The position numbers and the translations under genes were made by a program. Under the pieces are notes generated by a model, which saw only the letters and a program-made list of their open reading frames with translations, searched no databases and was not told where the DNA came from. From Elusimicrobia bacterium HGW-Elusimicrobia-3 (GTDB taxonomy: Bacteria > Elusimicrobiota > Elusimicrobia > Elusimicrobiales > UBA9959), in contig PHAL01000002.1 of the NCBI GenBank assembly GCA_002840355.1, forward strand, positions 108,857-172,856: DNA of 64,000 nt. The letters run 5' to 3'. Below are positions 2,935 through 41,852 of this stretch, piece after piece (the stretch's first letter is position 1; each line of letters opens with the position of its first letter).

Positions 2935-3321
2935 TCAGGGCTTTTGCCTGGTTATCACCGTTTCCACTTTCTCGCGTATCGTTTCCACCGGCGAGAGCTT
3001 GGTCATGAATATCTTTACGTTGTGCTCGTTTCGCAGCAGGCTCTCGGTCATGGAATTGTAGTCGCTGGCGGTGATCACGACGATAGGTATGCCGGCCGTG
3101 GCGGGGTTGGCCGACAGTTTGCGGGCGAACTCTATGCCTGTGATCCCGGGCATGTTCACGTCCAGCATTACCAGGTCCGGGACAAAAGTAATGGCTTTCC
3201 CTAGCCCCTCGAAGCCGTTGGTCGCCGTTTCCAGTTCGTAATCAGCGCCGAACATCCCTTTTGTCAGTTCAATGAACGGGAGGTTGTCATCCACTACCAG
3301 TATCTTTTTCTTTTCAGCCAT
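2935..3321 (-). CDS. single-domain response regulator (receiver)
   Basis: MAEKKKILVVDDN..., LVMLDVNMPGITG, VVITAS and FMTKL give the canonical DD/D/T/K residues. A GGAG sits upstream of the ATG at 3321. The track start at 3390 is rejected as an extension. Confidence 0.85.
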   Translation of the reverse strand: MAEKKKILVVDDNLPFIELTKGMFGADYELETATNGFEGLGKAITFVPDLVMLDVNMPGITGIEFARKLSANPATAGIPIVVITASDYNSMTESLLRNEHNVKIFMTKLSPVETIREKVETVITRQKP

Positions 3322-3340
3322 AGCGGCTCCTTGGGAGGGG

Positions 3341-3664
3341 TTAGAAGAACGAACGGGCCAGCGCAAGCGCTGCGGCGGCGCTAGCCGCATACGTCAGGGT
3401 CTTGGTTCTTGAAAGGCGGGTTCCCAGCGCTCGCAATTCCAGTTTCAGGGCTTCGGTCTGCCGCTTTTCTTCCAGCAGTTCCAGGATGCGCCGTTCATAC
3501 ATCGAGACCTTCTCTTCGACCTGGCTTTCTATGCGTTCAAGTCTGCCGACGCAATAATCCAGATCTTCGTTGACCAGTTCCCTGGCAAGTCTGTTGGACT
3601 CGCGGCGCAGCGTGGTTCCGGCGGGTAGGGCGGCTGTGGACGTGCCAGTCGGCAGCTCGCTCAT
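3341..3664 (-). CDS. coiled-coil hypothetical protein with hydrophobic C-terminus
   Basis: 107 aa with heptad-like ...RLERIESQVEEKVSMYERRILELLEEKRQTEALKLELRAL... and an Ala-rich hydrophobic tail. The start overlaps the stop of the upstream receiver gene (ATGA at 3661-3664). Confidence 0.6.
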   Translation of the reverse strand: MSELPTGTSTAALPAGTTLRRESNRLARELVNEDLDYCVGRLERIESQVEEKVSMYERRILELLEEKRQTEALKLELRALGTRLSRTKTLTYAASAAAALALARSFF

Positions 3665-4041
3665 GCCTGCAGCGCTTCCTTTACCATCTTCGTGATCAGG
3701 TCCGGATTGGAGAGTTTGGGAAGCATGCCCCGGCAGCGCGGGTCGGAGTGGAATGGCTGGTTAAGCGGGTCGCTGGCGCAGTCGTCGGGAGTAGTAATTA
3801 TGAACGGAATGCCGGGCCCCGGCAAGCCGCAGGAGTCCGTCCTCCTGGCGAATTCGTAAGCCGTCATGCCGGGAATGCCCGAGGCCAGTATCATGAAATC
3901 TGGCAGGAAGCGCTCCGCCTTGCTTAATCCCTCTTCTCCGCTGCCGGCGACCGCCACTTCATATCCCAGTTCGGAGAAGATGTAATGGTAAAGCTCCCTT
4001 ATCGCCCCTTCGTGCTCTACTATCAGTATTTTAGGCGTCAT
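3661..4041 (-). CDS. pseudo-receiver domain protein (phospho-acceptor Asp apparently replaced)
   Basis: Receiver-like fold (KILIVEHEG..., PDFMILASGIPGMTAYEF). It has EHE in place of the acidic DD pair. ILASG sits where LLDxxMP is expected. Confidence 0.7.
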   Translation of the reverse strand: MTPKILIVEHEGAIRELYHYIFSELGYEVAVAGSGEEGLSKAERFLPDFMILASGIPGMTAYEFARRTDSCGLPGPGIPFIITTPDDCASDPLNQPFHSDPRCRGMLPKLSNPDLITKMVKEALQA

Positions 4042-4042
4042 C

Positions 4043-4423
4043 TCACCTTCCTCGGCCTGATATCCGTCTCCCCAGCACCCGTACCCGGGCCAAAAAAACC
4101 TCGTTGTCGAACGGCTTGGTCAGGTAGTCGTCGGCCCCCGTTTCGTAGCCCGCCACCTGGTCTTCAGCCAATTCCCTTATAGTGAGCATCAGCACCGGCA
4201 TACCGCTGAAGCGCTCGCTGGAACGTATATTCTTCAGCAGGCCGAAACCGTCCATCTCCGGCATATTGATGTCGGTGACCACCAGGTCGGCTCCCTCACG
4301 GTTAAGCCTTTCCCAGGCCAGGCGGCCGTTGACCTCCGCTACGGGGGCGTGTCCGGCCCCGTCCAGCACTTCGGTGATGAGGGCCCTGAAATTGTCGTCG
4401 TCTTCAGCGATCAATATCCGCAT
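4043..4423 (-). CDS. single-domain response regulator (receiver)
   Basis: MRILIAEDDDNFR, DLVVTDINMPEMDG, LMLT and DDYLTKPF are canonical receiver motifs. Confidence 0.9.
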   Translation of the reverse strand: MRILIAEDDDNFRALITEVLDGAGHAPVAEVNGRLAWERLNREGADLVVTDINMPEMDGFGLLKNIRSSERFSGMPVLMLTIRELAEDQVAGYETGADDYLTKPFDNEVFLARVRVLGRRISGRGR

Positions 4424-4860
4424 ATAGTCCCCTCGATGTCCGGCCAGGGCCGGCTATCAGCGCCCGACTTTGTCCCGGCATCCTGCAGCAGGTCTATGAC
4501 CTTGAGCAGGTCGGTCATACCTGCAGGTTTTTCCTCAAGGCGCATGAAATTCTCCCTCGCTCCGAGGTCCTTGCGCTGACTTTCGTTTAGCGAAGCCCCG
4601 GTAACTATTATTACAGGTATGCGGCTTGTGGCCGGCTCCGCTGAAAGCTTGTCCATCACTTCCATCCCGCTCATATCCGGAAGCATCATATCCAGTAGTA
4701 TAAGATCGGGGTTAAGTCTGGCGGCCTTTTCCAACCCCTCGGTCCCGGTGCCTGCGATTTCCACGGCGTGGCCGCCGACCGTGGTCATGAAGCGGGACAT
4801 GGCTTTCTGGCAGCCCGGGTCATCTTCTATGGAAAGTATCTTAAGTCTTTTGGCCTTCAT
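4411..4860 (-). CDS. single-domain response regulator (receiver) with C-terminal extension
   Basis: LKILSIEDDPG, DLILLDMMLPDMSG and VIIVTG. It overlaps the downstream gene by 13 nt. Confidence 0.85.
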   Translation of the reverse strand: MKAKRLKILSIEDDPGCQKAMSRFMTTVGGHAVEIAGTGTEGLEKAARLNPDLILLDMMLPDMSGMEVMDKLSAEPATSRIPVIIVTGASLNESQRKDLGARENFMRLEEKPAGMTDLLKVIDLLQDAGTKSGADSRPWPDIEGTICGY

Positions 4861-4861
4861 G

Positions 4862-5578
4862 CTATTCTTTGCCGGTAAACATGTAGCCGGTGCCGTATAC
4901 TGTGCGTATCCTCTTGCCGTACAGGCCCAGTTTCCGCCGGAGGGACTCTATGTGTTTATCCACGCATTCGCAGTAGACGTTCACCGAATCCTCTCCCCAT
5001 AGTTTTTCCAGCATGGCCTCTCTGGAGACCACCTGTTTCTCGTGGCCTACCAGGAAAGCCAGTATGTCCAGTTCCCTCTGTGTCAGGGTGGACAACTCCG
5101 TAACCTTGCCCGGCCTGGATTTAATCTTTACCGCCCTGCGGCTGCTGTCCACTTCTATCTCGCCGCAACTGGAGGCGCATCTCGCTGAAGCCTGAAGTAT
5201 TGCCGGCATAATCCTCCTGAGGTGGGCTTTGACCTTGGCCACCAGTACTCGCTCGTCAAGATTCTTGTAGATAAAATCGTCCGCCCCGGCTTCCAGCAGG
5301 GCCGAGATCTGGGAGTTGGAGACCTTTGACTGGTCCCCGAAAACAATGACGGACAGCGGCATGCGCTTGCTCATCATGGTCTTTAACTCCTCGCCGCTCC
5401 TGCAGCAGGGCGCGCCGAATTCTACAAAGTCCAGTTCGCAGGCCTCGACCCGGGCGCAGGCATAAGCCGCGGAAGGGGCGTATAGCTCCACTTGCCAGCC
5501 TTCCTTGCGGAAAGCGGCCTGCCAGCGCGCGGCAATGCCGGTGTCCGCTGTGATTATATGGAAAAACAAATTCCGCAT
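4862..5578 (-). CDS. atypical OmpR/PhoB-family regulator (degenerate receiver + winged helix)
   Basis: The C-terminus (LTQRELDILAFLVGHEKQVVSREAMLEKLWGED...VDKHIESLRRKL...IRTVYGTGYMF) is a Trans_reg_C-type winged helix. The N-terminal receiver has ELDFVEFGAP where DLVLLDxxMP is expected. Confidence 0.8.
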   Translation of the reverse strand: MRNLFFHIITADTGIAARWQAAFRKEGWQVELYAPSAAYACARVEACELDFVEFGAPCCRSGEELKTMMSKRMPLSVIVFGDQSKVSNSQISALLEAGADDFIYKNLDERVLVAKVKAHLRRIMPAILQASARCASSCGEIEVDSSRRAVKIKSRPGKVTELSTLTQRELDILAFLVGHEKQVVSREAMLEKLWGEDSVNVYCECVDKHIESLRRKLGLYGKRIRTVYGTGYMFTGKE

Positions 5579-5807
5579 TATTTAATATCAAAACCCCGAT
5601 ACCGAGTTAATATTGTATTGCAAGCGCCTATGGCGGTCCACTAAAGTTATTTTTAAGTCTCTGCCGCTGCATCCACGCCGTTAAATGCGATATAGCCGGA
5701 ATAATGTTATCTGAAATGTCCCCGGAAGCGCATGAGGCGAAAGACTTACGCCCCGGACGGTCACCACCGTCAGGAAATTAGTGACCCTTCGGGTCCTATG
5801 CCGCCCG

Positions 5808-5841
5808 CCTTCGGGATTTGGAAATACTTTTCGGGTATAAT
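5808..5841 (+). promoter_or_regulatory. putative promoter/operator, motif copy A (CCTTCGGGATTT-N16-TATAAT)
   Basis: Core CTTCGGGATT at 5809-5818 and TATAAT at 5836-5841, with 16 nt between the 11-mer and the -10. A second CCTTCGGG lies 22 nt upstream (5786-5793). The site is 34 nt upstream of the ATG at 5875. Confidence 0.55.
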
Positions 5842-5874
5842 GATGTGGATTCTTACCGTACAGGGGAACTTTTT

Positions 5875-6564
5875 ATGAGTAACAGTATTCTTGTCGTGGA
5901 AGACCACGCAGAAACCCGGGAGATGCTTAAGGCCGCGCTGGAGGATGCCGGGTTCAGGGTGGCTTGCGCCGGCGGCGTGGCCGCGGCGCAGGAGTATCTG
6001 GCCGGTAATCGCCCCCGTATGCTGATACTGGATATAAGGCTGCCTGACGGCAACGGCCTGGAGATCTGTGCTCACGCGCGGCAAAGCGACGCCATGTCGG
6101 ATATCCCGGTAATAGCCCTGACCGGCCAGGACGAACTTCCGGACAAGAAGAAAGGTTTTGATGCAGGCGTGGACCAGTACCTGACCAAGCCCATAGTTAT
6201 GGAGGAGTTATTGATGTGGGTGGACGCGCTGCTGCGGCGGGTTTCCCTGGACAAATGCGGCGGTACGCTGTTGAAAGCCGGCCGCCTTGAAATGGATGTC
6301 CGGGCCCAACTGGTGAAATTCAGGGATAAGACGGTGGAAGACCTGACCAGAAGGGAGTTCGAACTCCTCTACGCGTTGGTCAAGAACAGTCCGGAGATAC
6401 TCTCGAGGCAAGAAATATTGGCGCATGTCTGGCGCACCGTAGCGGTGGAGAACCTGGTGGATACCCACATGTTCAACCTGCGCAAGAAGCTGCCCCCCGA
6501 ACTGTCCGAACGGATACAATCCATCACCGGCAAAGGGTTCCGCTACTATGATTCGGGGCTATAA
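5875..6564 (+). CDS. OmpR/PhoB-family response regulator
   Basis: MSNSILVVEDH..., MLILDIRLPDGNG, VIALTG, YLTKP, then a winged helix (LTRREFELLYALVKNSPEILSRQEILAHVWR...THMFNLRKKL...GKGFRY). Confidence 0.9.
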   Translation: MSNSILVVEDHAETREMLKAALEDAGFRVACAGGVAAAQEYLAGNRPRMLILDIRLPDGNGLEICAHARQSDAMSDIPVIALTGQDELPDKKKGFDAGVDQYLTKPIVMEELLMWVDALLRRVSLDKCGGTLLKAGRLEMDVRAQLVKFRDKTVEDLTRREFELLYALVKNSPEILSRQEILAHVWRTVAVENLVDTHMFNLRKKLPPELSERIQSITGKGFRYYDSGL

Positions 6565-6584
6565 CTGATCCTAAATTCTCCGGT

Positions 6585-6627
6585 TTCGTCTTTTCTTCGG
6601 GATTCGGCGGCATGTTCTCCCTATAAT
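6585..6627 (+). promoter_or_regulatory. putative promoter/operator, motif copy B (TTCGTCTTTTCTTCGGGATTCGG-N14-TATAAT)
   Basis: The 23-mer at 6585-6607 matches copies C and D at 20-21 of 23 positions. TATAAT at 6622-6627 lies 16 nt after GGGATTC. It is 40 nt upstream of the start at 6667. Confidence 0.6.
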
Positions 6628-6666
6628 ATTGAAAGCGGGACTGTCGCGGGACACGCCTGCTCAAAT

Positions 6667-7773
6667 ATGGGCGAGATAATGATCTTAGACTGGTATCAGG
6701 CGGCGGCGCGGCGTTACGGCCGGGCGCTGTTGCCGCTTTGTCTGATCTGCTGGGCGCCGCTGAACTCGGCCGCGCTCATCTCCGCGTCCGGGGAATACTC
6801 ACTGGAGGCTTCGGTGCTCGACAGTGGCGGCGGGAGGAGGCTGGAGGGGGGGCAGTACGCCAGCCGGGCCTCGGCCGGGCAGAACGTTCTGCCGGCGGGG
6901 TATGGGAACTCCGTTTCCGGGGAATATACCAACAGGAGCGGTTTTTACAACCCTCCGCATTTCACCTTTCAAAAAGGACTGCCTGCCATTGTCGACTTTA
7001 ATTCCGGCAATGCCGCCCTCACGCTACCGGCGGGCGCGGTGAATAAGGAAGTCTTCGACATTACATTTAACCATAACCCGGCGGCACAGCCTTTGTGCGT
7101 TGAGCCGGGACTGATAAATTCCGCCAATCTAAAGATGGAGACCAACGAGGGGGCCTGGTCCCGCCTTTTTCCTAATCACATAACCGAGATGACCATCTTC
7201 GACGAACAGGATTTCTGGGAAAAACCTCTGATCAAGAGCGGTTTGTTGTCCATGCGCTACAGCGACGACAACGGCGACGGGGTGCTGGACGGTTCCAATC
7301 CCCCTGTAAGGGTGGAGACGATAAAAACCTGGGCCCTGGACGAGGAACTGGCCATGTGGGCCAAACTCCCCGGGGCTTCGGTGGACACCGTCGCCAGGGA
7401 GATAAGCGCCCCGTTCATGGTCCCTGGTGTATATTCGCTGCTGGGTATGGTGGATGAGTCGGTAAAGAACACCTACGCCTTCCCGGTGCCTTTCCGCCCC
7501 AACGGCCCCAACGCGGGTCTGGGAGCTGGCCAGACTGGCAGTGAGGCTGAAGGTATAACCTTTATAAATGTGCCGCAGGTCGGGGATATAGAGATCTATA
7601 CCCTGGACGGCAGGCTGGTGAGGAAACTCAATATCCCGGCCGGTCTTATGCTCCCTAAAATTAAATGGGACGCGCGCACAGCCGGAGGCGAGAGGGCGGC
7701 CAGCGGTACTTATATCTGGCGGGTTGTTTCGGGTTCCAACTCTAAGAGCGGAAAACTAATGGTGATTTGGTAA
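6667..7773 (+). CDS. secreted protein with C-terminal T9SS-type/FlgD-Ig-like beta-sandwich domain
   Basis: N-terminal hydrophobic signal (ALLPLCLICWAPLNSAAL). The C-terminus (GDIEIYTLDGRLVRKLNIPAG...KWDARTAGGERAASGTYIWRVVSGSNSKSGKLMVIW) resembles Por-secretion C-terminal sorting and FlgD Ig-like domains. Confidence 0.65.
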   Translation: MGEIMILDWYQAAARRYGRALLPLCLICWAPLNSAALISASGEYSLEASVLDSGGGRRLEGGQYASRASAGQNVLPAGYGNSVSGEYTNRSGFYNPPHFTFQKGLPAIVDFNSGNAALTLPAGAVNKEVFDITFNHNPAAQPLCVEPGLINSANLKMETNEGAWSRLFPNHITEMTIFDEQDFWEKPLIKSGLLSMRYSDDNGDGVLDGSNPPVRVETIKTWALDEELAMWAKLPGASVDTVAREISAPFMVPGVYSLLGMVDESVKNTYAFPVPFRPNGPNAGLGAGQTGSEAEGITFINVPQVGDIEIYTLDGRLVRKLNIPAGLMLPKIKWDARTAGGERAASGTYIWRVVSGSNSKSGKLMVIW

Positions 7774-7788
7774 AGGTAAGGAGGGTGT

Positions 7789-8979
7789 ATGAACATTAAG
7801 ACAATAGTAGCGGGCCTTTTAACAGGGATGGTCCTGTTATTGGCCCCGGCGGTTTATGCCGCGGACAACGGCACCGAGTTCGGTATAGAGGACGACCTGA
7901 CCGTGCTGGGTACCGGGGGGGCGGTTACACCGGCCGACCCGGACCTGGAGGTTAAGGGGTTCACTGTGTTCGGCTCCACGCAGACGGCCTATACCGGCCT
8001 GGCGGCGCCGGCGGCCGGCGACGTGGTGGTCAACGGCTACCTGGCCGTGTCCTCCGGGGCCTACTTCGTGGGCGGTTCCACGTTCGCCGCGGGCGGGGCT
8101 TACTTCACCGGGGTCAGCAGCTTCTCCAATGTCGCCAACGTGCATTTCGGCGGCGGCGTGGCGGGGCAGGTGCTCTCCAAGCAGGCGGGCGGGGGCATGC
8201 AGTGGACTAATGTCTCGGAAATGGTGTCCGGAGACAACCTGGGCAGCCACATCGCCACTACCACGCTGAACATGGCGGCGCACGACCTCGAGGATGCCGG
8301 ATATGTAACCGCCTCCAGCGCGGCCCTGAGCGGGCAGCTGGTTGTATACGGCACCTCCACCCTGACCGGCAATACCGGCGTGGGCGGCACGCTGGGCGTG
8401 ACCGGGGCGGCTGCCTTGAACGGCAACATCGCTCTCGGCGACGCGGCATCCGACATAGTGACCGTCAACGGGCAGTCCAGTTTCGTCGCGGGCTCGACCT
8501 TCTCCGCCGGCGCTTACTTCACCGACATAAGCAGCTTCAGCGACGTGGCGAAGGTCCACTTCGGCGGCGGCGCGCCTGACCAGGTGCTTAAGAAGGCGGC
8601 GGGCGGAGGCATGCAGTGGACTAATGTCTCGGACATGGTGTCCGGAGACAACCTGGGCAGCCACATCGCCACTACCACGCTGCAGATGGCCAATAACGAG
8701 ATCATGGCCGCCGGGCATATCACGGCGTCCAGCGCTACACTGACCGAGACTTTTAACGTCGCCGGGGCGGTGGACTTCGACACCACGCTCAACGTGGACG
8801 GCAGCGCTACATTAAGGGGCAACAACCAGCTAGGCGACGCTTTTACCGACGATCACGGCATAAACGTGGCCGCCGAGGACGGCGTGGCGCTGAAGGTCGC
8901 CGGGGAAGACGTCTCCAACAAGTACGCGGCCAAGTTCTATTCAGGGGCCAACCTGGCCGCCTGGATAAAGAAGAAGTAA
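7789..8979 (+). CDS. secreted fibre-family protein (internal 138-aa duplication, GDNLGSHIATTTL motif x2)
   Basis: Signal peptide MNIKTIVAGLLTGMVLLLAPAVYA. The N-terminal module (EDDLTVLG...DPDLEVKGFTVFGSTQ...VVVNGYLAVSSGAYFV) is shared with the 15710 gene. GGAGG lies before the ATG. Confidence 0.8.
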   Translation: MNIKTIVAGLLTGMVLLLAPAVYAADNGTEFGIEDDLTVLGTGGAVTPADPDLEVKGFTVFGSTQTAYTGLAAPAAGDVVVNGYLAVSSGAYFVGGSTFAAGGAYFTGVSSFSNVANVHFGGGVAGQVLSKQAGGGMQWTNVSEMVSGDNLGSHIATTTLNMAAHDLEDAGYVTASSAALSGQLVVYGTSTLTGNTGVGGTLGVTGAAALNGNIALGDAASDIVTVNGQSSFVAGSTFSAGAYFTDISSFSDVAKVHFGGGAPDQVLKKAAGGGMQWTNVSDMVSGDNLGSHIATTTLQMANNEIMAAGHITASSATLTETFNVAGAVDFDTTLNVDGSATLRGNNQLGDAFTDDHGINVAAEDGVALKVAGEDVSNKYAAKFYSGANLAAWIKKK

Positions 8980-9005
8980 GCGCGGGTTCATACTCCTCCT
9001 GCAGT

Positions 9006-9028
9006 CCCGCCGGGATAGGCCCGGCGGG
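9006..9028 (+). other. intergenic GC stem-loop (CCCGCCGGG-ATAGG-CCCGGCGGG)
   Basis: A perfect 9-bp inverted repeat lies between the 7789 and 9045 genes. No U-tract follows, so a terminator function is uncertain. Confidence 0.35.
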
Positions 9029-9044
9029 AAGAGGTAAAGATAAT

Positions 9045-10379
9045 ATGAAAAAGGTCGAGACGCTGAAAACGCTGGCAAACAGGCTCTTTAATGGGCTTGC
9101 CGGTGCTTTCTTTGTCTTTGCCTTGCTCTCCGCGTGCCTGCCGGCGGTTATAAACGCCGAGGTCCCGGTGAAGTTCACTTACCAGGGCAACCTGCGGCAG
9201 AACGGCTTCCTTGTGAACGGCCAGCGCCCCATGGTGTTCCGCATCTATGCCTCCTCCATTTCGGCCGCGGAGCTTTGGACCAGCCCTGCCTACGATGTCA
9301 GTCTTTCCACCGGTGTCTTCCGCGTTACCCTTGAGCCAGCTACCATCACAGATTGGCAGACCGGCAGCCTGTGGTTAGAACTCGAGATAGAAGGCAACCG
9401 CATGTCGCCAAGGGAAGAATTAACCTCCTCCCCCTATGCCATAAACAGTCTTATGCTTTCCGGCAAGCGCTACAGCACTTCGGCCTCAGAGCCGACGGCT
9501 TCGGTCCCCGGCGAACTCTGGTTCGATTCGGTCAACAACGTGGTGAAGTTCTGGAACGGGACAATGTGGGTGGACACTTCGGGGGGCGGCATTCCCGGCG
9601 CCCACGCGGCCCTGCACGCGGGCGGCGGCAGTGACCCGATAGTATCATTAGGCACGCATGCTGTAACCGGCTACATCACGGTCTCGTCTTCCGTGACGGC
9701 TGGCTGGTATTACGGCGACGGCTCCGGTATTTATAACCTCAACGCTTCGGCTATCAGCTACGGCTACCTTTCCGGCGACCGCATCGGCAGCGTGATAGTA
9801 TCAACGCACATCGTGGACGGCTCCATACAGGCGCAGGATATAGCCGACAATACCATTACTCGCGCCAAGCTGAACCAGTCGGGTTGCGCCAGCGGCGAGA
9901 TTCTGCAGTGGGGCGGCTCCGAGTGGGTCTGCGGCAGCGGCGCGGCCGCCGGCCTGGAGGTAGACCCGCTTTCCATACACAACCAGGACACACTGCAAGT
10001 CGGAACGACTTTCTATGTATCCTCGGGTACGGCCAACGATCTAAACGTAATTAATACCCTTAAGGTGGAAGGCACAGCGTTCATAAAGGGCGCGCCGGGC
10101 CAGCAGGGCCTCTCCGTGGATGCGACCGGCAATGTGGGCATAGGCGTGGCGGGCGCCTCCGCCAGGCTGGAAGTGCGCGGCGAGGATACCCAGGCCTACA
10201 GCCTGGCCGTGGGCACCGGCACCGCACACCAGGTGGTGGTATCCACATCAGGCGCGGTCGGCATAGGTACCGAAACCCCGCGAGCCAAGGTGGAGGTAAG
10301 CGGCGGCGAGGACTCCGGAGAGTACATAATGATCTTCAACTCCGGCACAAAGCTGGCGGCCTGGCTGAGGAATAAATAG
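9045..10379 (+). CDS. secreted fibre-family protein
   Basis: Signal/TM segment (LAGAFFVFALLSACLPAVINA). It has YYGDGSGIYNL and GNVGIGV...ARLEV / GAVGIGTETPRAKVEV segments. The C-terminal ...FNSGTKLAAWLRNK parallels ...FYSGANLAAWIKKK of the 7789 gene. Confidence 0.8.
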   Translation: MKKVETLKTLANRLFNGLAGAFFVFALLSACLPAVINAEVPVKFTYQGNLRQNGFLVNGQRPMVFRIYASSISAAELWTSPAYDVSLSTGVFRVTLEPATITDWQTGSLWLELEIEGNRMSPREELTSSPYAINSLMLSGKRYSTSASEPTASVPGELWFDSVNNVVKFWNGTMWVDTSGGGIPGAHAALHAGGGSDPIVSLGTHAVTGYITVSSSVTAGWYYGDGSGIYNLNASAISYGYLSGDRIGSVIVSTHIVDGSIQAQDIADNTITRAKLNQSGCASGEILQWGGSEWVCGSGAAAGLEVDPLSIHNQDTLQVGTTFYVSSGTANDLNVINTLKVEGTAFIKGAPGQQGLSVDATGNVGIGVAGASARLEVRGEDTQAYSLAVGTGTAHQVVVSTSGAVGIGTETPRAKVEVSGGEDSGEYIMIFNSGTKLAAWLRNK

Positions 10380-10506
10380 GAGCCCTCGGGGTTGGGCCAG
10401 TTCTTTTGGGTATATAATACGTTCCCCTCCCGCCCGCGCTTTTCTGGACGCTCACGCCTATAGGCTCAGGGATAAAGATTACGACCTTCTCATCCTGGAC
10501 GTCAAC

Positions 10507-10836
10507 ATGCCCAAGATGAACGGGTACAAGGTCTCGGAGATCCTGCACGAGAAATTGCCCTCGCCGCCCAAAGTGCTGATCTTCACCGGCCGTGACCTGG
10601 AGCAGAAAAAACTGCAGTTCGTCTGTTCCGACGCGGACGCCATTCTTAACAAGGGCACCGGCAACGACAAGCTGATCGAGACCATAGAGGGCCTGTTCGG
10701 CGGGAAACCCGCCGCCCCGCAGCCTGCGGCGCCGCCCCAGCTTACGCCGGAGCCGCCCCCGCAAACCCCGGTACCGCCCGCGGCCGCCGGGGCGAAACCG
10801 GCTTGTCGGATGTGCGGCGTGTGCTTGGGCATATAG
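10507..10836 (+). CDS. receiver-domain fragment (N-terminally truncated response regulator) with Pro-rich tail
   Basis: The frame is open only from 10369, after an in-frame TGA at 10366-10368. It reads ...GYIIRSPPARAFLDAHAYRLRDKDYDLLILDVNMPKMNGYKV...VLIFTG. Beta1/alpha1 with the acidic pair cannot be encoded. Confidence 0.6.
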   Translation: MPKMNGYKVSEILHEKLPSPPKVLIFTGRDLEQKKLQFVCSDADAILNKGTGNDKLIETIEGLFGGKPAAPQPAAPPQLTPEPPPQTPVPPAAAGAKPACRMCGVCLGI

Positions 10837-11021
10837 AACTAGACTACACGCAGTTGGAGGGGCAGTTCGAAAAGCAAGCGGCGAAGGCGCTGGAAGCGAA
10901 TAGGCAGACCACGCTGAGGTTGGTAGCGGAGTGGCAGAGTCTCAGGACCCTCGTGGCGGTCAGCGTCCTTTTTATGCTGCTCTGTATGCTCTTCCTGCTG
11001 ATGTCGCGCCCATTGTCTTGA
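10803..11021 (+). CDS. small coiled-coil protein with C-terminal TM helix (uncertain)
   Basis: 72 aa, overlapping the end of the receiver fragment in another frame: ...QLEGQFEKQAAKALEANRQTTLRLVAEWQSLRTLVAVSVLFMLLCMLFLLM. It may be the frameshifted C-terminus of the receiver gene. Confidence 0.3.
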   Translation: MSDVRRVLGHIELDYTQLEGQFEKQAAKALEANRQTTLRLVAEWQSLRTLVAVSVLFMLLCMLFLLMSRPLS

Positions 11022-11069
11022 AAATATATTTAGTGGAAAAGCTCCCCGCCATGGCGATAAACTCTTAAA

Positions 11070-11465
11070 GTGGCCAATAAAATACTGATAATAGAGGACG
11101 ACTGGGATTTTCAGGCAATGATCTCCGCTTTCCTTTGCGAGCAGGGCTTTGACGTGGAGAGCGCGGACAACGGGAAGATAGGCATAAAGAAGGCTCTCTG
11201 TTCACGTCCGGACCTGATACTGATGGATTATTCGCTCGGCGACATGAACGGCAATGACGCCGCTTTCTGGCTGGACCACATGAAAGGGACCCGGACAATC
11301 CCGGTAATACTGCTCTCGGCCATGGGCGGGGATCCGGAGGTGGCGGAGGAATTTAAGAAATTCCCGGTATGCCGCGGCGTCCTGTCCAAGACTTTGCCGT
11401 TGGCCGAAATTCTAGACACCATCAAAGCCGTGATAGCCAAAGGCGCCATCCCTTACCATAAGTGA
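11070..11465 (+). CDS. single-domain response regulator (GTG start)
   Basis: ANKILIIEDDWD, DLILMDYSLGDMNG, VILLSAM. Clear paralog of the 32207 gene. Confidence 0.85.
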   Translation: MANKILIIEDDWDFQAMISAFLCEQGFDVESADNGKIGIKKALCSRPDLILMDYSLGDMNGNDAAFWLDHMKGTRTIPVILLSAMGGDPEVAEEFKKFPVCRGVLSKTLPLAEILDTIKAVIAKGAIPYHK

Positions 11466-11592
11466 GCCCGGACCCGCCGGCAAAGCGGGCGCAGTCTTGA
11501 AATGAAAACACTGAACCTTTTGACTTCGCGCGTATAGCGCTGGAACTGCAGCGGGCGGGCGCCTGGCCGGTCCGCGGTAAGCAGGGGGACTT

Positions 11593-11952
11593 GTGCAGCC
11601 GGAAAGTATAGAAACCTTCATCGACCCCATAATCGCTGTATGCCGCGAGCAGTTTCCTCGCAAGTGCGGCAACTGCGGCCGCGAATTCTCCGATTTTCAG
11701 GACTTCGCGGCGAATACCCGCCCGTTCGGGGCATTGCTGCCCACTTACCTTCGGGATGACCTGTTCGGGGCCATCTCATACGTCAACTGCCTATGCGGCA
11801 ACACCATAACCCTTGAATGCGTTGATGCCGCCGTTAACGGCCGCCTGGCTGAGGCTATACTCCGGGAGGCCGTGATCTGCGGCCGCCCTGTCAGGGCCAT
11901 ACTGATGGACCTGAGGGCGGAAGTGCGCCGCCGGGTGCTGGGCGCGGCGTGA
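11593..11952 (+). CDS. Cys-rich hypothetical protein (possible zinc ribbon), GTG start
   Basis: 119 aa with CGNCG...VNCLCG...C spacing. It lies between a receiver gene and an HK/RR pair. Confidence 0.45.
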   Translation: MQPESIETFIDPIIAVCREQFPRKCGNCGREFSDFQDFAANTRPFGALLPTYLRDDLFGAISYVNCLCGNTITLECVDAAVNGRLAEAILREAVICGRPVRAILMDLRAEVRRRVLGAA

Positions 11953-12072
11953 CGCCGCGCCCCCGGCAACAGGGCTCACCCCTGTCGCTGGCTCTGCTGC
12001 TTTTTCGGCCGGGGCTGGTAGTCGCGGCCTTCGTACAGGGGGGGATAGCAGCGGCCAGCGGCGGAGCACTAT

Positions 12073-12115
12073 TCGTTATTTCTTCGGGATTCAGGGGCGG
12101 GATACGCGTATAATG
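12073..12115 (+). promoter_or_regulatory. putative promoter/operator, motif copy C (TTCGTTATTTCTTCGGGATTCAG-N14-TATAAT)
   Basis: The 23-mer at 12073-12095 matches copy D at 22 of 23 positions. TATAAT at 12110-12115 lies 16 nt after GGGATTC. It is 35 nt upstream of the ATG at 12150. Confidence 0.6.
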
Positions 12116-12149
12116 CATATGGAGTCATAATATCGGACAGGCGGTAGGA

Positions 12150-13553
12150 ATGAAGACATCTTTCAGGCTGGGTCTAATTGTGTTGGGCGCCGCGCTGGCG
12201 CCGGCGCTGGTATTGTATTTCTGCGCTTTCAGGACCGGTCTCGAACTGCGCTATGCACTGGCACTCGCGGCGGGCGCGGCTATCTTTTCCTCTATGGCCG
12301 GGGCCGGGCTGATAATGGCCGGTATAGCCCTGCCCATGTCCAGGGCAGGCGCGTGTATTAAAAAATTTATTTCAGGCGGTTACAAATTGGAGTCGCCTAT
12401 CGCGAAAGCGGGCTGGCCTGAGGCCAGGGAGCACGTTTCTTCACTTAACCGCGTGCTGCTGGAGTTGAACGCCTTCCGCTCTTTTCAGATCAACCAGGCT
12501 ATAGAGGAGCGCGCCAAGGCGGAGGCCCTGCTGGAAACGATAACGGACGGGGTGCTGCTCGTGGATGACCAGGCAAGGATGATACATTGCAACAGACGCG
12601 CGCTGGAATTACTTGGACTGCCAGAGGCCGGCGCGGTAGTATTGCCGGATTCCGCCGGACAAAAGGAATTCATAGAACCGCTGCGCGAGGTGCTGGCCTC
12701 GGGGGAGAAGAACGCCAGGGTCGATATCTCCATCCGGACGGAGGGCGAGGAAGAAGGGGCGCAACGCAGTTTCAGGCTGATCTCGCGTCAATTCCTGCTG
12801 GCTACCTTTAAGCGCCCCGGCCGCGTGATAATCATACGCGACGTTAGCCTGGAGAAGGAGATAGAGGGCGCCAGGGAAACCTTCTTTCACATGATAACGC
12901 ACGATATGCGCGCGCCTATCTGCAGCATACAGGGCTATACCGAACTTATGCAGAAGCAGCGCCCATCAACCCAGAATTCAGAGCGATATCTCGACGCTAT
13001 AATGCGCTCTTCGGACAGGCTTAAAGGCATGGTGGAAGATATACTGAACATGATAAAACTGGAGCGGGGGGAAATGCGGCTGGCCTCGGTCAGCATAGAC
13101 GGCGGCGAACTCTGCGCCCGCATGTTCGAACTGCATCAGCCGCTGGCGGAACGGCGGAAGATCACACTTTCGGTTCCTCCTCCCTCCGGGGAGAAAGTCG
13201 TCTTCAACGGGGATATAGCCTTGTTGGAGCGCGTGGTGGCCAATTTGGTGGGCAATGCCCTGAAATTTACGCCCACCGGAGGCGCGGTTAGATTTAGTTG
13301 CCATGCCAAGGGGACGGACGCGCTGTTCAAGGTGGAAGACTCCGGCCCCGGCGTGCCGGAGACGATGCGCGAGGAGATATTCAAGAAACACTTCCAGCAG
13401 GAGGAGCATAAGCACATGGGGTTCGGCCTGGGCCTGGCCATGTGCAAGATGGCCGTGGAACTGCACGGCGGGCGTATCTGGGCCGACGCCGGAACGGAGC
13501 GGGGCGCCGTTTTCGCTTTCACTATTCCGTTAAAGGACGCATGCAATGCCTAA
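12150..13553 (+). CDS. sensor histidine kinase
   Basis: Two N-terminal TM helices, a PAS-like region, the H-box FFHMITHDMRAPICSI, an N-box (NLVGNALKFT) and G-boxes (DSGPGV, GFGLGLA). Confidence 0.9.
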   Translation: MKTSFRLGLIVLGAALAPALVLYFCAFRTGLELRYALALAAGAAIFSSMAGAGLIMAGIALPMSRAGACIKKFISGGYKLESPIAKAGWPEAREHVSSLNRVLLELNAFRSFQINQAIEERAKAEALLETITDGVLLVDDQARMIHCNRRALELLGLPEAGAVVLPDSAGQKEFIEPLREVLASGEKNARVDISIRTEGEEEGAQRSFRLISRQFLLATFKRPGRVIIIRDVSLEKEIEGARETFFHMITHDMRAPICSIQGYTELMQKQRPSTQNSERYLDAIMRSSDRLKGMVEDILNMIKLERGEMRLASVSIDGGELCARMFELHQPLAERRKITLSVPPPSGEKVVFNGDIALLERVVANLVGNALKFTPTGGAVRFSCHAKGTDALFKVEDSGPGVPETMREEIFKKHFQQEEHKHMGFGLGLAMCKMAVELHGGRIWADAGTERGAVFAFTIPLKDACNA

Positions 13554-13956
13554 AGCGCTCATAGTCGACGACGAACCGGCGATACAGCAATTGTTCCGGT
13601 ATGTATTGGAGGAAGCGGAGTTCGAGGTGCAGGTGGCCCAGAACGGTCTGGAAGGCTTATCGGCGCTGGCTTCCGGTCCGGTGGACATCATGCTGCTGGA
13701 CGTTTCCATGCCGGAGATGGACGGGCGGCAGTTCGTGACCGAGATTATGCGCCGTTCCGCGCGCGATAGCAGGCTGGCCGAGATCCCTTTTATAGTCATG
13801 ACCGGGGAAAACTTCATGGAAAGCGGGCTTAACCGGACCTTCTCCGCCGCGCCGGGATTCGTCTGTTTCCTGCCCAAGATGACCCCCCCGGAGACAGTGC
13901 TGGAAAAAATACGGGAAGCTATGTCCCCGCCGTCTTCCTCTGGCTCCGGCGGGTAG
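13546..13956 (+). CDS. single-domain response regulator
   Basis: ALIVDDEPA, IMLLDVSMPEMDG, FIVMTG. It overlaps the HK gene by 8 nt. Confidence 0.85.
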   Translation: MPKALIVDDEPAIQQLFRYVLEEAEFEVQVAQNGLEGLSALASGPVDIMLLDVSMPEMDGRQFVTEIMRRSARDSRLAEIPFIVMTGENFMESGLNRTFSAAPGFVCFLPKMTPPETVLEKIREAMSPPSSSGSGG

Positions 13957-40067: not shown

Positions 40068-40110
40068 TTCGTCATTTCTTCGGGATTCAGCGCTCCCCCG
40101 GGTATAGACT
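40068..40110 (+). promoter_or_regulatory. putative promoter/operator, motif copy D (TTCGTCATTTCTTCGGGATTCAG-N14-TAGACT)
   Basis: The 23-mer at 40068-40090 matches copy C at 22 of 23 positions. A TAnnnT hexamer at 40105-40110 lies 16 nt after GGGATTC. It is 20 nt upstream of the ATG at 40130. Confidence 0.55.
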
Positions 40111-40129
40111 ATCTATAGGTGAACTACCT

Positions 40130-41848
40130 ATGAACAGAGGAGCCGGAAAAATCTTTGGCGCAGTCATGTCCTTTACGGGCATGCTGTGCCTTGCCGTTAC
40201 CGGCTATTGCGGTGACGCCGGCTCGGCCGGCGCGTCTTTCTTGAAATTTTCACCCAGCCCCAGGGGTACCGGTATGGGTGAGTCCCACGTTTCGATATCA
40301 GAAGACGCCTATTCCTCGTGGTGGAACCCGGCCGGCCTGGGCAGCGTGGAGGGGCCGGAGCTGGCCGCTACCTACAACGATTCCATGGAGGACGTCGCCA
40401 ACCAGTATCTTTCGGTGGCGTATCCTCTCCGTTATGGCTCCACGCTGGGGCTGAGCGTTACCCGCCTGAGCGTCTCTCCCTTTCAGGGTTACGACGCGCA
40501 GGGGGTAAAGAGCGGCAGGGTGGAATCCTCGGACATGTCGGTGGGGGCCGCTTACGGGCGGGCCATCATGAAGGACGAGATAGAACGTCCGGTGCTCAAC
40601 GTGGGGGCGGTCTTTAAGGTAATCAGCGAAGAACTGGCCGGGGTCTCCGCTTATACCGCGGCGCTGGATCTTGGCGCGGTCTATTATATTAGGCCGGACA
40701 ATTACTGGATGAGCAAGGCGCCGGCGCAAGAATTCCGCGTAGCCGCCACCTTGCGCAACCTGGGCCCCGGCTTAAAGTTCGACAAGGAGTCCTCGCCGCT
40801 GCCCTTGTCCGCCACACTGGGCGGGTCATGGCATTCGCATCCCGGCGGCAGCGCCAGCCTTATAATCAGCCTGGACCAGACCATCTCCAGGGACGAGAAC
40901 TATTATGCCGCGCTGGGCGCCGAGTACGTGGCCTTTCAACTGCTCTCGCTGCGGGCGGGCTATCGCACCGGGCAGGACATCGGTTCCGGCCTGCGCTTCG
41001 GCGTGGGTTTCCGCCTTTCCATCGCCGATATAGATTATTCCATGTCGCCGTTCGGGGAGCTGGGGGCTATGCACAAGCTGGGCGTCTCTATGCGGTTGGG
41101 AGCCACGGCGGCCAAATTGCCGCTGGCCGGCAAGACCCAGCGCGTAAAAGGAGCCCGGCTGATGGCTCCCAAGGACAAGATAGAAAAACTGGATCTTTTC
41201 GCCAATGATTTCCTGGAGCTGGCCCGCAAAGATCTGTCGGCCCGCCGCTATGTTTCTGCCCAGGCCAATATTCGCAAAGCCTTTAACCTGGATCCCAGGC
41301 TGAAGGAAGGCGACTGGGGCCGCCGTGAAAAGCGCCTTGGCGAAGTTATAGCGGGGCTTAAGCTGGCCGATATCCCGGCCAGGGAGAGAACGCTGGCCGC
41401 CAAGGGCGAGCAGTCCGGCATAGCGGCCGAGGCTATAGCCGCCTATATAGAGAGCAAGGACCTGAAGGCCTTCCTGCTCGCGCATGCCGCGCTGGGCACC
41501 GACCTGCGGGGCGACGCCGTCTTTGAGGAACTGCTCTACATATTGAGCGACCTGGTAAAGATACATGTGCGCCGCGACGAGATACTCCCGAGGCAGGCGC
41601 TGATCAAGGAAAAGCTCAGGAAGGCGGCCAGGGGTTTTTACATACGCCAGTTCGACACGGCCGCCAAGGAATGCGAGGAGGTTGCCGTAATAGACGAGGC
41701 GAATCCCGTGGCCTGGACCAGGCTGGGCTCGGCCTATTTCATGATGGGGGATAAGGATAAAGCCAAGGCCGCCTACCGCAAGGCCCTGGAAATAAACCCG
41801 TCCGACCCGGTTACCAGTGAATTCATGCGGGCCCAGGGCTGGGAGTAG
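40130..41848 (+). CDS. outer-membrane beta-barrel (PorV/UPF0164-like) fused to C-terminal TPR region
   Basis: Signal peptide. AGASFLKFSPSPRGTGMGESHVSISEDAYSSWWNPAGLG resembles the N-terminal signature of PorV/PorQ-type barrels (recalled from memory). Alternating beta-strand pattern. C-terminal TPR (AWTRLGSAYFMMGDKDKAKAAYRKALEINPSDP). Confidence 0.6.
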   Translation: MNRGAGKIFGAVMSFTGMLCLAVTGYCGDAGSAGASFLKFSPSPRGTGMGESHVSISEDAYSSWWNPAGLGSVEGPELAATYNDSMEDVANQYLSVAYPLRYGSTLGLSVTRLSVSPFQGYDAQGVKSGRVESSDMSVGAAYGRAIMKDEIERPVLNVGAVFKVISEELAGVSAYTAALDLGAVYYIRPDNYWMSKAPAQEFRVAATLRNLGPGLKFDKESSPLPLSATLGGSWHSHPGGSASLIISLDQTISRDENYYAALGAEYVAFQLLSLRAGYRTGQDIGSGLRFGVGFRLSIADIDYSMSPFGELGAMHKLGVSMRLGATAAKLPLAGKTQRVKGARLMAPKDKIEKLDLFANDFLELARKDLSARRYVSAQANIRKAFNLDPRLKEGDWGRREKRLGEVIAGLKLADIPARERTLAAKGEQSGIAAEAIAAYIESKDLKAFLLAHAALGTDLRGDAVFEELLYILSDLVKIHVRRDEILPRQALIKEKLRKAARGFYIRQFDTAAKECEEVAVIDEANPVAWTRLGSAYFMMGDKDKAKAAYRKALEINPSDPVTSEFMRAQGWE

Positions 41849-41852
41849 CGAC

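What the first reader, a model, noticed from the sequence alone, without database searches (positions are those of the whole stretch)
5786..12115. Conserved promoter/operator element CTTCGGGATTY-N16-TATAAT upstream of the OmpR-type regulator, the first fibre operon and an HK/RR pair
Read directly from the sequence:
- copy B: 6585 TTCGTCTTTTCTTCGGGATTCGG 6607, then TATAAT at 6622-6627;
- copy C: 12073 TTCGTTATTTCTTCGGGATTCAG 12095, then TATAAT at 12110-12115;
- copy A: core CCTTCGGGATTTGG at 5808-5821, then TATAAT at 5836-5841, plus a second CCTTCGGG 22 nt upstream at 5786-5793.

In all three the distance from the end of the GGGATT(C/T) block to the -10 hexamer is exactly 16 nt. Each lies 34-40 nt before a start codon (5875, 6667, 12150).

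The element occupies the -35 position but does not look like TTGACA. That pattern is what is seen when PhoB/OmpR-class activators supply the -35 function. Copy A precedes an OmpR-family gene and copy B follows the same gene, so that regulator is an obvious candidate binder. Alternatively it could be a lineage-specific or ECF-type -35 element.
Basis: seen in the sequence. Interest (0 to 1): 0.7.

Follow-up and report, generated by a model that had tools for sequence, protein, structure and literature searches.

The report
Conserved Elusimicrobia response-regulator promoter box
A nearly invariant 45-base promoter, in which two tandem 11-base repeats take the place of the usual -35 box, sits before cell-surface and signalling genes across the uncultured phylum Elusimicrobiota; it is most likely the docking site of an OmpR/PhoB-type regulator encoded next door, which is a familiar mechanism in a new lineage.

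Summary
CTTCGGGATTY occurs exactly four times in the window (5809, 6595, 12082 and a missed copy at 40078). All four are intergenic, point toward the downstream gene, and lie 16 nt before a TAnnnT box.

Copies B, C and D are two tandem 11-bp direct repeats (TTCGTnATTTC | TTCGGGATTY), then 16 unconserved bases, then TA(T/G/A)A(A/C)T-AT. The same cassette occurs in about 30 Elusimicrobiota genomes (GC 33-66%). It lies before two conserved genes: a secreted protein with a T9SS-type C-terminal domain, and a PorV-like outer-membrane protein. It is present upstream of 38 of 41 orthologues collected without reference to the motif.

Some lineages changed G to A at the same position of both repeats, and in one locus at both target genes. 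That points to one trans-acting protein bound in tandem. There is no -35 hexamer, no nearby sigma gene and no Rfam RNA match.

Copy A is a distinct single-repeat subtype found before nearly every orthologue of the OmpR-type regulator. The window encodes three OmpR-type DNA-binding proteins, and which one binds is unresolved.

Verdict: a new member of the PhoB/OmpR class of activator-dependent promoters. It is of moderate interest as a phylum-wide regulon.

The parts
6585..6629 (+). Copy B, type I promoter. Distal repeat TTCGTCTTTTC 6585-6595, proximal repeat TTCGGGATTC 6596-6605, 16-nt spacer, -10 TATAAT 6622-6627, then AT. It drives F1 (6667) and the genes that follow it.
   Evidence: orthologous sites in 38 of 41 unbiased F1 loci
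12072..12114 (+). Copy C, type I promoter. TTCGTTATTTC | TTCGGGATTC, N16, TATAAT 12109-12114. It lies before the histidine kinase gene at 12150.
40068..40112 (+). TTCGTCATTTC | TTCGGGATTC, N16, TAGACT 40105-40110, then AT. It lies before the PorV-like gene at 40130.
   Evidence: F2 orthologues in more than 15 genomes carry it
5810..5841 (+). Copy A, type II promoter. Single repeat TTCGGGATTT 5810-5819, a 16-nt spacer ending in a T-tract (acttttcggg), and TATAAT 5836-5841. It lies before RR1.
5783..5795 (.). It is a separate element of unknown role.
   Evidence: L006 GACCTTCCAGGTC, L053, L054, L011
5875..6564 (+). RR1 (family R-a). A canonical OmpR/PhoB-family response regulator (REC plus Trans_reg_C, phospho-acceptor Asp present). 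Recognition helix NLVDTHMFNLRKKL.
4862..5578 (-). R-b. An atypical OmpR-family regulator with a degenerate receiver domain that has Glu in place of the phospho-acceptor Asp. Helix ECVDKHIESLRRKL. It is the first gene of an operon of REC-only genes.
2935..4860 (-). Single-domain receiver genes downstream of R-b: 4411-4860, 4043-4423, 3661-4041 and 2935-3390.
   Evidence: the same layout occurs in L134 and L137
39486..40019 (+). wHTH2. An R-a-like OmpR-type DNA-binding domain with no receiver domain (helix NLVHTHVCNLRRKL). It lies directly upstream of copy D.
6667..10379 (+). Target operon: F1 (6667-7773; signal peptide-like N-terminus, T9SS type A sorting domain at the C-terminus), g7789 (7789-8979) and g9045 (9045-10379). 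The last two have no known domains.
12150..13956 (+). Target operon: a PAS-HisKA-HATPase histidine kinase (12150-13553) and a REC-only protein (13546-13956). In other genomes this pair lies directly upstream of the F2 promoter.
40130..42794 (+). Target operon: F2, a PorV/PorQ-family outer-membrane protein with C-terminal TPR repeats (40130-41848), and a cytoplasmic-type histidine kinase (41817-42794).
10385..10418 (+). Degenerate type II-like promoter: CTCGGGGTTG, N18, TATAAT. It sits at the position where relatives carry a type II promoter before a fibre paralogue. Here a truncated receiver gene follows it.

Best explanation
The element is the binding site of an OmpR/PhoB-family winged-helix regulator. 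It replaces the -35 box of sigma-70-type promoters.

In the full form (copies B, C and D), two protomers bind head-to-tail to two 11-bp direct repeats, TTCGTnATTTC | TTCGGGATTY. With the -10 box at -12 to -7, the repeats span about -49 to -29. RNA polymerase cannot recognise a -35 hexamer here. The bound dimer is inferred to recruit or position sigma region 4, and transcription is inferred to start about 7 nt after the TA(T/G/A)A(A/C)T box.

The regulon is conserved across Elusimicrobiota. It comprises a secreted protein with a T9SS-type C-terminal domain plus fibre-like paralogues, a PorV-like outer-membrane protein, and the system's own kinases and receiver proteins.

Copy A is a weaker one-repeat version. 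It controls the canonical regulator RR1, giving a feedback loop.

The anatomy, conservation, gene associations and concerted evolution of the two repeats are shown. Activation rather than repression, the start sites, and the identity of the binding protein are inferred. My split for the full sites is about 45% the aspartate-less R-b (4862-5578, minus strand), about 35% RR1, and the rest wHTH2 or several of them competing.
For: (1) All four exact copies are intergenic, co-oriented with the downstream gene, and 16 nt from a TAnnnT box.

(2) Both repeats share TTCG..ATT with an 11-bp period. In some genomes the two repeats are identical (TTCGGGATTTC TTCGGGATTG in L076, L077 and L095).

(3) In an F1-anchored set collected without reference to the motif, 38 of 41 upstream regions carry the element. 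Information content is high over both repeats and the -10 box and near zero over the spacer. Spacer length is 16 in 75 of 82 unique full sites.

(4) The -10 box varies as a sigma-70 -10 does: T1, A2 and T6 never change, and position 3 is free.

(5) There is no -35. GGGATT matches TTGACA at 2 of 6 positions, and the sigma-70 scan finds none of the four promoters.

(6) G changed to A at repeat position 4 in both repeats together in 7 loci and never in only one repeat. In L074 the change is present at both the F1 and the F2 promoters. F1 similarity indicates at least two independent switches.

(7) OmpR-type genes flank the element in nearly all loci, including a distant lineage (L131) where R-b sits in the operon just upstream of TTCGTGATTTA TTCGTGAATA-N16-TATCTT.

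(8) The one-repeat form precedes about 20 distinct RR1 orthologues, which is the usual signature of response-regulator feedback.
Against: No binding, transcription-start or expression data exist.

The repeats end 16 bp from the -10 box, against 10 bp for the pho box (that figure is from memory), so the geometry relative to sigma region 4 differs from the PhoB paradigm.

R-a and R-b have different recognition helices, yet in most genomes both site types share TTCGGGATT.

Residue-level covariation between either regulator and the G-to-A switch is not clean.

Two G-to-A loci (L074, L079) have no wHTH gene within 3 kb.

The conserved AT after the -10 box, and the inverted repeats linking the -10 box to the start codon, are not explained by this model.
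Confidence: 0.72

Rival explanations
1. RR1 (5875-6564) alone binds all four copies. It activates its own gene through copy A and the target operons through B, C and D. R-b and wHTH2 would have other targets.
For: RR1 lies between copies A and B. Its orthologues (62-66% identity) sit directly upstream of F1 in many genomes. Almost every orthologue has the one-repeat promoter. It is a canonical phosphorylatable regulator, with kinases among the target genes.
Against: The full site and F1 or F2 occur in distant lineages where only R-b-type genes are adjacent (L018, L036, L045, L046, L050-L052, L059, L131). In G-to-A genomes the full sites switched while the RR1-type promoters kept G (L070, L071, L132). 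That is hard to reconcile with one protein reading both site types.
Confidence: 0.2
2. The conserved block is the -35 element, possibly with an upstream extension, of a lineage-specific or ECF-type alternative sigma factor. It is not a transcription-factor site.
For: The block occupies the -35 position at a fixed spacing. One-repeat promoters show that the proximal repeat plus a -10 box can stand alone.
Against: The -10 box is canonical TATAAT/TAnnnT, not ECF-like. The genes that are conserved next door are OmpR-type regulators.
Confidence: 0.06
3. The repeats are an operator for an OmpR-type repressor. The protein blocks RNA polymerase at promoters that otherwise fire constitutively.
For: The site overlaps the polymerase footprint. 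Some OmpR-family proteins repress (established knowledge). The aspartate-less R-b could bind constitutively.
Against: These promoters have no -35 hexamer and no extended -10 TG, so they should be weak without help (and direct reading). The strict 16-bp spacing to the -10 box across the phylum is what a protein-to-sigma contact predicts. Simple occlusion does not predict it.
Confidence: 0.1
4. The conserved block is a transcribed RNA element, such as a leader or an RNA-binding-protein site containing a CUUCGG tetraloop, rather than promoter DNA.
For: CUUCGG is a classic stable tetraloop sequence. Inverted repeats link the '-10' box to the start codon in several loci.
Against: No Rfam family matches. 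The G-to-A variants destroy UUCG in both repeats without any compensating change. The element is a direct repeat, not a stem. The spacer shows no conservation or covariation.
Confidence: 0.03

Closest known systems
PhoB and the pho box of E. coli (structures 1GXP, and 3T72 with sigma region 4)
   Same: Two 11-bp direct repeats are bound head-to-tail by an OmpR/PhoB-family winged helix. The site replaces the -35 hexamer of a sigma-70 promoter with a normal -10 box. The regulator's own gene carries the site. PhoB structures appear among the hits of R-b.
   Different: The repeat sequence is TTCG..ATT, not CTGTCAT. The site ends 16 bp from the -10 box, not 10 bp (the 10-bp figure is from memory). 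RR1 scores 150 bits against the PhoB equivalog cut-off of 296. The targets are surface and signalling genes, not phosphate genes.
Other OmpR-family class II activators with solved activation complexes or DNA complexes (KdpE 4KFC/4KNY, PmrA/BasR 8JO2, M. tuberculosis PhoP 9JI3, RpaA 9DVT)
   Same: These are the closest solved relatives of RR1 (E 1e-23 to 1e-29). From memory, they use tandem direct-repeat recognition near -35.
   Different: None is known to me to recognise TTCG-N7-TTCG. None comes from Elusimicrobiota. The near-invariance of the site across a phylum is unusual.
Atypical, aspartate-less OmpR-family regulators (for example H. pylori HP1043, PDB 2HQR, and Chlamydia ChxR); the class is surveyed in PMC4395418, which I saw by title only
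   Same: R-b has Glu in place of the phospho-acceptor Asp and a sub-threshold receiver domain. 2HQR is among its PDB hits. From memory, these proteins bind direct repeats without phosphorylation.
   Different: R-b heads an operon of four or five single-domain receiver genes. This suggests regulation by partner proteins rather than constitutive activity. There is no experimental data.
PorX/PorY/SigP control of the Bacteroidota type IX secretion system
   Same: A two-component system controls genes for a PorV-family outer-membrane protein and for cargo with a T9SS-type C-terminal domain.
   Different: From memory, PorX has a PglZ/phosphatase output domain and acts with an ECF sigma factor. Here the regulators are OmpR-type wHTH proteins and no ECF sigma gene is nearby. 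I did not examine whether Elusimicrobiota have a functional T9SS.

Membership tests
PhoB/OmpR-class activator-dependent sigma-70 promoter (tandem-repeat site replacing -35) | Two direct repeats with a 10-11 bp period | tested here: met
   TTCGTnATTTC | TTCGGGATTY. The repeats are identical in L076, L077 and L095. A scan offset by 11 bp re-finds the site in L057.
PhoB/OmpR-class activator-dependent sigma-70 promoter (tandem-repeat site replacing -35) | The site overlaps the -35 position and there is no TTGACA-like hexamer | tested here: met
   The repeats span about -49 to -29. GGGATT matches TTGACA at 2 of 6 positions. None of the four promoters is reported by the sigma-70 scan.
PhoB/OmpR-class activator-dependent sigma-70 promoter (tandem-repeat site replacing -35) | A sigma-70-type -10 box at a fixed distance | tested here: met
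   TAnAnT with T1, A2 and T6 invariant. Spacing is N16 in 75 of 82 unique full sites and N17 in 7.
PhoB/OmpR-class activator-dependent sigma-70 promoter (tandem-repeat site replacing -35) | A cognate OmpR-family winged-helix regulator is encoded with the regulon, and its own promoter carries the site | tested here: met
   Three Trans_reg_C proteins are in the window. R-a or R-b genes lie beside the site in nearly all loci. A one-repeat site precedes about 20 RR1 orthologues.
PhoB/OmpR-class activator-dependent sigma-70 promoter (tandem-repeat site replacing -35) | Both half-sites are read by the same protein species | tested here: met
   Position 4 is G,G in 29 unique sites, A,A in 7, and mixed in none. 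The switch is also present at F2 in L074. This is indirect evolutionary evidence.
PhoB/OmpR-class activator-dependent sigma-70 promoter (tandem-repeat site replacing -35) | Demonstrated protein-DNA binding, activator dependence and a start site about 7 nt after the -10 box | not testable with these tools
   This needs EMSA or DAP-seq, reporter assays and 5'-end mapping.
Pho regulon proper (PhoB with a pho box) | The regulator is a PhoB equivalog, the box is CTGTCAT-like and 10 bp from the -10 box, and the targets are pst/pho genes | tested here: not met
   RR1 scores 149.7 bits against a cut-off of 296.2. The motif and the 16-bp spacing differ. The targets are F1, F2 and kinases.
ECF or alternative-sigma promoter | A non-canonical -10 box (for example CGTC) with a single short -35 element, and a sigma/anti-sigma gene pair in the autoregulated operon | tested here: not met
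   The -10 box is TATAAT-like. The upstream element is a 21-bp tandem repeat. The RpoE probe found nothing in the window or in Elusimicrobiota loci.
Known cis-regulatory RNA (Rfam) | A match to a curated covariance model | tested here: not met
   There were 0 matches at E<=1 in window 5000-13000. Copy D was not searched.
Residue-to-base covariation identifying the binder (R-b or R-a) | Recognition-helix substitutions that track the G-to-A switch | tested here: inconclusive
   R-b has N and T at the positions equivalent to PhoB D196 and R201 in L070, L071, L073 and L132. N alone occurs with G-type sites (L069/L134, L059), and L096 differs again. R-a has the pair I,H, but there are only two G-to-A sequences.

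The most novel reading that the evidence does not exclude
Elusimicrobiota may run a phylum-wide surface-fibre and PorV-like export programme from a nearly frozen 45-bp promoter cassette read by two related regulators. A phosphorylation-independent, aspartate-less OmpR-type protein (R-b) would bind the tandem sites, tuned by a battery of single-domain receiver proteins. The canonical regulator RR1 would bind the one-repeat sites. This would be a two-tier circuit, and its two specificities became separable in lineages that switched TTCG to TTCA. It would also imply a T9SS-like cargo and PorV module, with dedicated regulation, outside the Bacteroidota-Fibrobacterota-Chlorobiota group.
Probability: 0.25. 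Interest if true: 0.6.

Novelty: new member of a known kind. Interest (0 to 1): 0.42.

Why it matters
Elusimicrobiota are almost entirely uncultured, and I found nothing published on their transcriptional control. This element provides a ready-made, phylum-wide regulon marker. A 21-base pattern picks out the promoters of a conserved set of envelope genes (a T9SS-type cargo protein, fibre paralogues and a PorV-like protein) and their two-component signalling genes in about 30 species-level genomes.

The element can be used in three ways:
- to predict regulon members in any Elusimicrobiota MAG;
- to design DAP-seq or EMSA experiments with three named candidate proteins;
- to study how a regulator and all of its sites change specificity together, using the natural TTCG-to-TTCA lineages.

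Mechanistically it is an expected type of promoter, so its value is as an entry point rather than as a new principle.

Tried and rejected
(1) Weaker copies in the window. A scan allowing 2 mismatches in the repeat, N15-17 and TAnnnT found only the four exact sites, against 1.7 expected in shuffles. The motif is all-or-none here.

(2) A general housekeeping promoter. Rejected. There are only 4 copies in 64 kb, they are restricted to two gene families plus signalling genes across the phylum, and 21 conserved bases is far more than a generic -35 element.

(3) A mobile repeat or MITE. Rejected. The copies sit at orthologous positions in genomes of 33-66% GC, and they have no terminal inverted repeats.

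Rejected. The Glu aligns with PhoB E191 in the transactivation loop. A lineage with Gly at that position still has TTCG repeats (L131). L069/L134 has Asp with TTCG.

(5) Contigs for further R-b variants (P0067, P0077, P0052). They carried no F1 or F2 gene and no motif, so they added no data.

(6) Motif before the 1668-aa gene at 15710. It is absent in the window, although the close relative L030 has both promoter types there.

(7) tRNA genes as a source of reference promoters. None are present in the window.

(8) Literature on Elusimicrobia promoters, and on PorV in Elusimicrobia. Nothing relevant was found.

Full report
OBSERVATION

The sequence is as described, with small corrections.
- Copy A: repeat TTCGGGATTT at 5810-5819, TATAAT at 5836-5841.
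- Copy B: TTCGTCTTTTCTTCGGGATTC at 6585-6605, TATAAT at 6622-6627.
- Copy C: TTCGTTATTTCTTCGGGATTC at 12072-12092, TATAAT at 12109-12114.

In all four copies, 16 nt separate the repeat from the -10-like box. All are intergenic and on the same strand as the next gene.

The composite pattern gives 4 hits against 0.44 expected, and 0 of 100 shuffles reached 4. Degenerate versions of the 11-mer occur at chance frequency. A relaxed composite scan finds nothing beyond these four. The element is therefore real and sharply defined.

ORGANISM AND GENE CONTEXT

One window protein is 100% identical to a protein of 'Elusimicrobia bacterium HGW-Elusimicrobia-3'.

Copy A precedes RR1 (5875-6564), a canonical REC plus Trans_reg_C response regulator.

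Copy B follows RR1 and precedes three genes:
- F1 (6667-7773). Its C-terminus passes the NCBIfam cut-off for a T9SS type A sorting domain.
- Two proteins without known domains (7789-8979 and 9045-10379).

Copy C precedes a PAS histidine kinase (12150-13553) and a REC-only protein (13546-13956).

Copy D follows a receiver-less Trans_reg_C protein, wHTH2 (39486-40019). It precedes F2 (40130-41848) and a second histidine kinase (41817-42794). F2 belongs to the PorV/PorQ family (147 bits against a cut-off of 90) and has C-terminal TPR repeats.

A third OmpR-type gene, R-b (4862-5578, minus strand), is transcribed divergently from RR1. Its receiver domain is sub-threshold (20.8 bits) and carries Glu in place of the phospho-acceptor Asp. 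It heads an operon of four REC-only genes.

CONSERVATION OUTSIDE THE WINDOW

A scan of one genome per species (185,579 species) with TTCGTNNTTTCTTCGGGATTY returned 61 loci. About 39 come from about 30 Elusimicrobiota assemblies whose loci range from 33% to 65% GC.

In all but one of those loci the motif is followed, after exactly 16 nt, by TATAAT, TATACT, TAGACT or TAAACT, and then by AT. The 22 hits in other phyla lack this arrangement.

The first gene downstream is almost always an orthologue of F1 (about 360 aa) or of F2 (about 575 aa). The exceptions are fibre-like paralogues.

The gene order RR1, motif, F1, g7789, g9045 recurs, as does kinase, REC, motif, F2, kinase.

That scan fixed 19 motif positions, so I built an unbiased set. 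An alignment of 16 F1 proteins was used to fetch 69 metagenomic loci. Of 41 loci with a readable upstream region, 38 carry the element.

In this set both repeats and the -10 box have high information content. The 16-nt spacer has almost none, apart from a mild C-richness at its 3' end.

ANATOMY

The 21-bp block is a tandem direct repeat with an 11-bp period: TTCGTnATTTC and TTCGGGATTYn. The two halves share TTCG and ATT.

In L076, L077 and L095 the two repeats are identical. A scan offset by 11 bp re-detects the site in L057.

With the -10 box at -12 to -7, the repeats cover about -49 to -29.

The hexamer at the -35 position (GGGATT) matches TTGACA at 2 of 6 positions. The consensus promoter scan reports none of the four promoters.

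The -10 box varies as sigma-70 -10 boxes do. T1, A2 and T6 never change, position 3 is free, and position 5 is A or C.

CONCERTED CHANGE

Seven loci have A instead of G at position 4 of both repeats, for example TACATAATTGC CTCATGATTG. These are L070, L071, L073, L074, L079, L096 and L132. Spacing and the -10 box are unchanged.

Among unique sites of the unbiased set, position 4 is G,G in 29 sites, A,A in 7, and never mixed.

In L074 the F1 and F2 promoters lie back to back, and both carry the A form.

Judged by F1 similarity, the switch happened at least twice:
- L096 is at most 51% identical to every other F1.
- L071 is closest (82%) to the G-type L067.

Two half-sites that change together, at several promoters of one genome, are what is expected if one trans-acting protein binds both halves and changed its specificity. 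A sigma -35 element or an RNA motif would not be expected to behave this way.

TWO SITE TYPES

Copy A is not a weak copy of B. A survey of all loci shows a second architecture, type II:
- a single repeat, yTCG(G/T)GATTy;
- mostly 17 nt of spacer (23 sites), sometimes 16 nt (8 sites), ending in a T-tract;
- TATAAT without the following AT.

For comparison, the AT follows the -10 box in 73 of 82 full sites but in only 2 of 35 single-repeat sites.

Type II promoters precede about 20 distinct RR1 orthologues, two orthologues of the 12150 kinase, and fibre paralogues downstream of the F1 operon.

In the G-to-A genomes, the type II promoters before the RR1-type gene keep G: L070 CTCGTGATTC and L071 CTCGTGATTT. 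L132 likewise keeps TTCGTGATTG, at a type II site before another gene. The two site types are therefore probably read by different proteins.

It is conserved as a palindrome in orthologous regions.

WHICH PROTEIN BINDS

Two winged-helix families flank the element.
- R-a (RR1 and wHTH2) has the helix NLVDTH(L/M)FNLRkKLP. It occurs in the nearer relatives.
- R-b has the helix E(C/T)(V/I)DKH(I/V)E(S/T)LRrKLG. It lies beside F1 in nearly all loci, including distant ones that have no adjacent R-a.
- In L131, R-b sits in an operon just upstream of TTCGTGATTTA TTCGTGAATA-N16-TATCTT. That site precedes a 5404-aa FG-GAP/Laminin_G/FlgD_ig protein.

This distribution favours R-b for the tandem sites. The type II site before every RR1 orthologue favours RR1 autoregulation there.

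I looked for helix residues that track the G-to-A switch among 118 R-b homologues and the locus-encoded proteins:
- R-b has Asn and Thr at the positions equivalent to PhoB D196 and R201 in four G-to-A loci.
- Asn alone also occurs with G-type sites (L069/L134, L059).
- L096 differs again.
- R-a shows an Ile-His pair, but in only two sequences.

The test is inconclusive. Three further contig look-ups added no sites.

ALTERNATIVES EXAMINED

- No Rfam family matches window 5000-13000 at E<=1.
- Repression cannot be excluded. However, the missing -35 hexamer and the strict spacing argue for activation through a contact with sigma.

COMPARISON WITH KNOWN SYSTEMS

The architecture is that of PhoB at pho boxes and of other OmpR-family class II activators.

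The closest solved relatives of RR1 are PrrA, KdpE, RegX3, MtrA, PmrA/BasR, PhoP and RpaA. R-b also hits the PhoB DNA-binding domain structures and HP1043.

It is not the Pho regulon. RR1 scores half the PhoB cut-off. The repeat sequence differs. The site ends 16 bp from the -10 box rather than 10 bp, and the targets are envelope and signalling genes.

I found no literature on this element or on Elusimicrobia promoters.

VERDICT

This is a real, strongly conserved cis element. It is best explained as a new OmpR/PhoB-family binding site that substitutes for the -35 box.

The kind of mechanism is known. The motif, the regulon and its phylum-wide near-invariance are new.

It needs three corrections: there are four copies, not three; there are two site types; and there are three candidate regulators.

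Noticed in passing
window 40101-40132; L015, L017, L021, L032 (F2 promoters); window 6616-6675: The -10 box is the 5' arm of an inverted repeat whose 3' arm ends at the start codon, for example L015 ATAGACTATT-gatggg-AATAGTCTATG. Folding z-scores are -3.3 to -5.2 in L015, L017 and L021, and -3.8 for window copy B. Window copy D is not significant (z +1.2). The repeat could hide the start codon in read-through transcripts, or it could be a second operator. It may explain the conserved AT after the -10 box.
   Followed up: partly
window 4862-5578 (-): R-b is an OmpR-family protein whose receiver domain has Glu in place of the phospho-acceptor Asp. This is conserved in homologues P0068 and P0079, and the residue is absent in P0094. 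It is followed by four REC-only genes, and the same layout occurs in L134 and L137. This looks like an unusual multi-receiver signalling module.
   Followed up: partly
window 5783-5795: A perfect palindrome, GACCC-TTC-GGGTC, lies 15 nt upstream of the copy A repeat. It is conserved as a palindrome, with a different sequence, in L006, L011, L053 and L054. It may be the site of another regulator in the divergent RR1/R-b control region.
   Followed up: partly
window 6667-7773 (F1): The F1 C-terminus passes the cut-off for a T9SS type A sorting domain (24.7 bits against 23). Its N-terminal residues 25-94 give a weak hit to the CPR-type pilus tip pilin PamT (E 3e-4, 20 bits against a cut-off of 240). 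PamT is described in bioRxiv 10.64898/2026.03.03.709456. Together with the PorV-family F2, this hints at a T9SS-like sorting module in Elusimicrobiota.
   Followed up: partly
window 10385-10836: After the F1 operon there is a degenerate type II-like promoter: CTCGGGGTTG, N18, TATAAT at 10413. It runs into a receiver gene that lacks its N-terminal half (10507-10836 matches only REC profile positions 52-110). This looks like a deletion or rearrangement scar. In the relative L011, a fibre gene follows directly at this position.
   Followed up: partly
window 15584-15709 versus L030 2783-3030: The close relative (JBFXJL01; about 89% nucleotide identity to the window in L011 and L038) has both a full tandem site and a single-repeat promoter before a fibre-gene paralogue. 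The window has unrelated sequence and no motif before its 1668-aa gene at 15710. Regulon membership therefore differs between close relatives.
   Followed up: yes
L131 6142-6186: In a distant Elusimicrobiota lineage, the tandem site TTCGTGATTTA TTCGTGAATA-N16-TATCTT precedes a 5404-aa FG-GAP/Laminin_G_3/FlgD_ig protein. It directly follows an operon of REC, REC, R-b and REC genes.
   Followed up: partly
window 6646-6667: In most orthologues F1 starts about 18 nt after the -10 box (…GGGAACGTCATG). In the window and in L011 that ATG is replaced by GCG, and the first in-frame ATG is 7 codons downstream at 6667.
   Followed up: no
L018, L036, L045, L050 (upstream of the motif): In lineages where R-b is divergent from F1, a conserved TTTAACAAAC lies about 20 nt upstream of the distal repeat. 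On the other strand this reads TGTTAAA(T) and resembles an extended -10 box for R-b. Its -35 region would overlap the repeats, which would be a possible route to R-b autoregulation.
   Followed up: no
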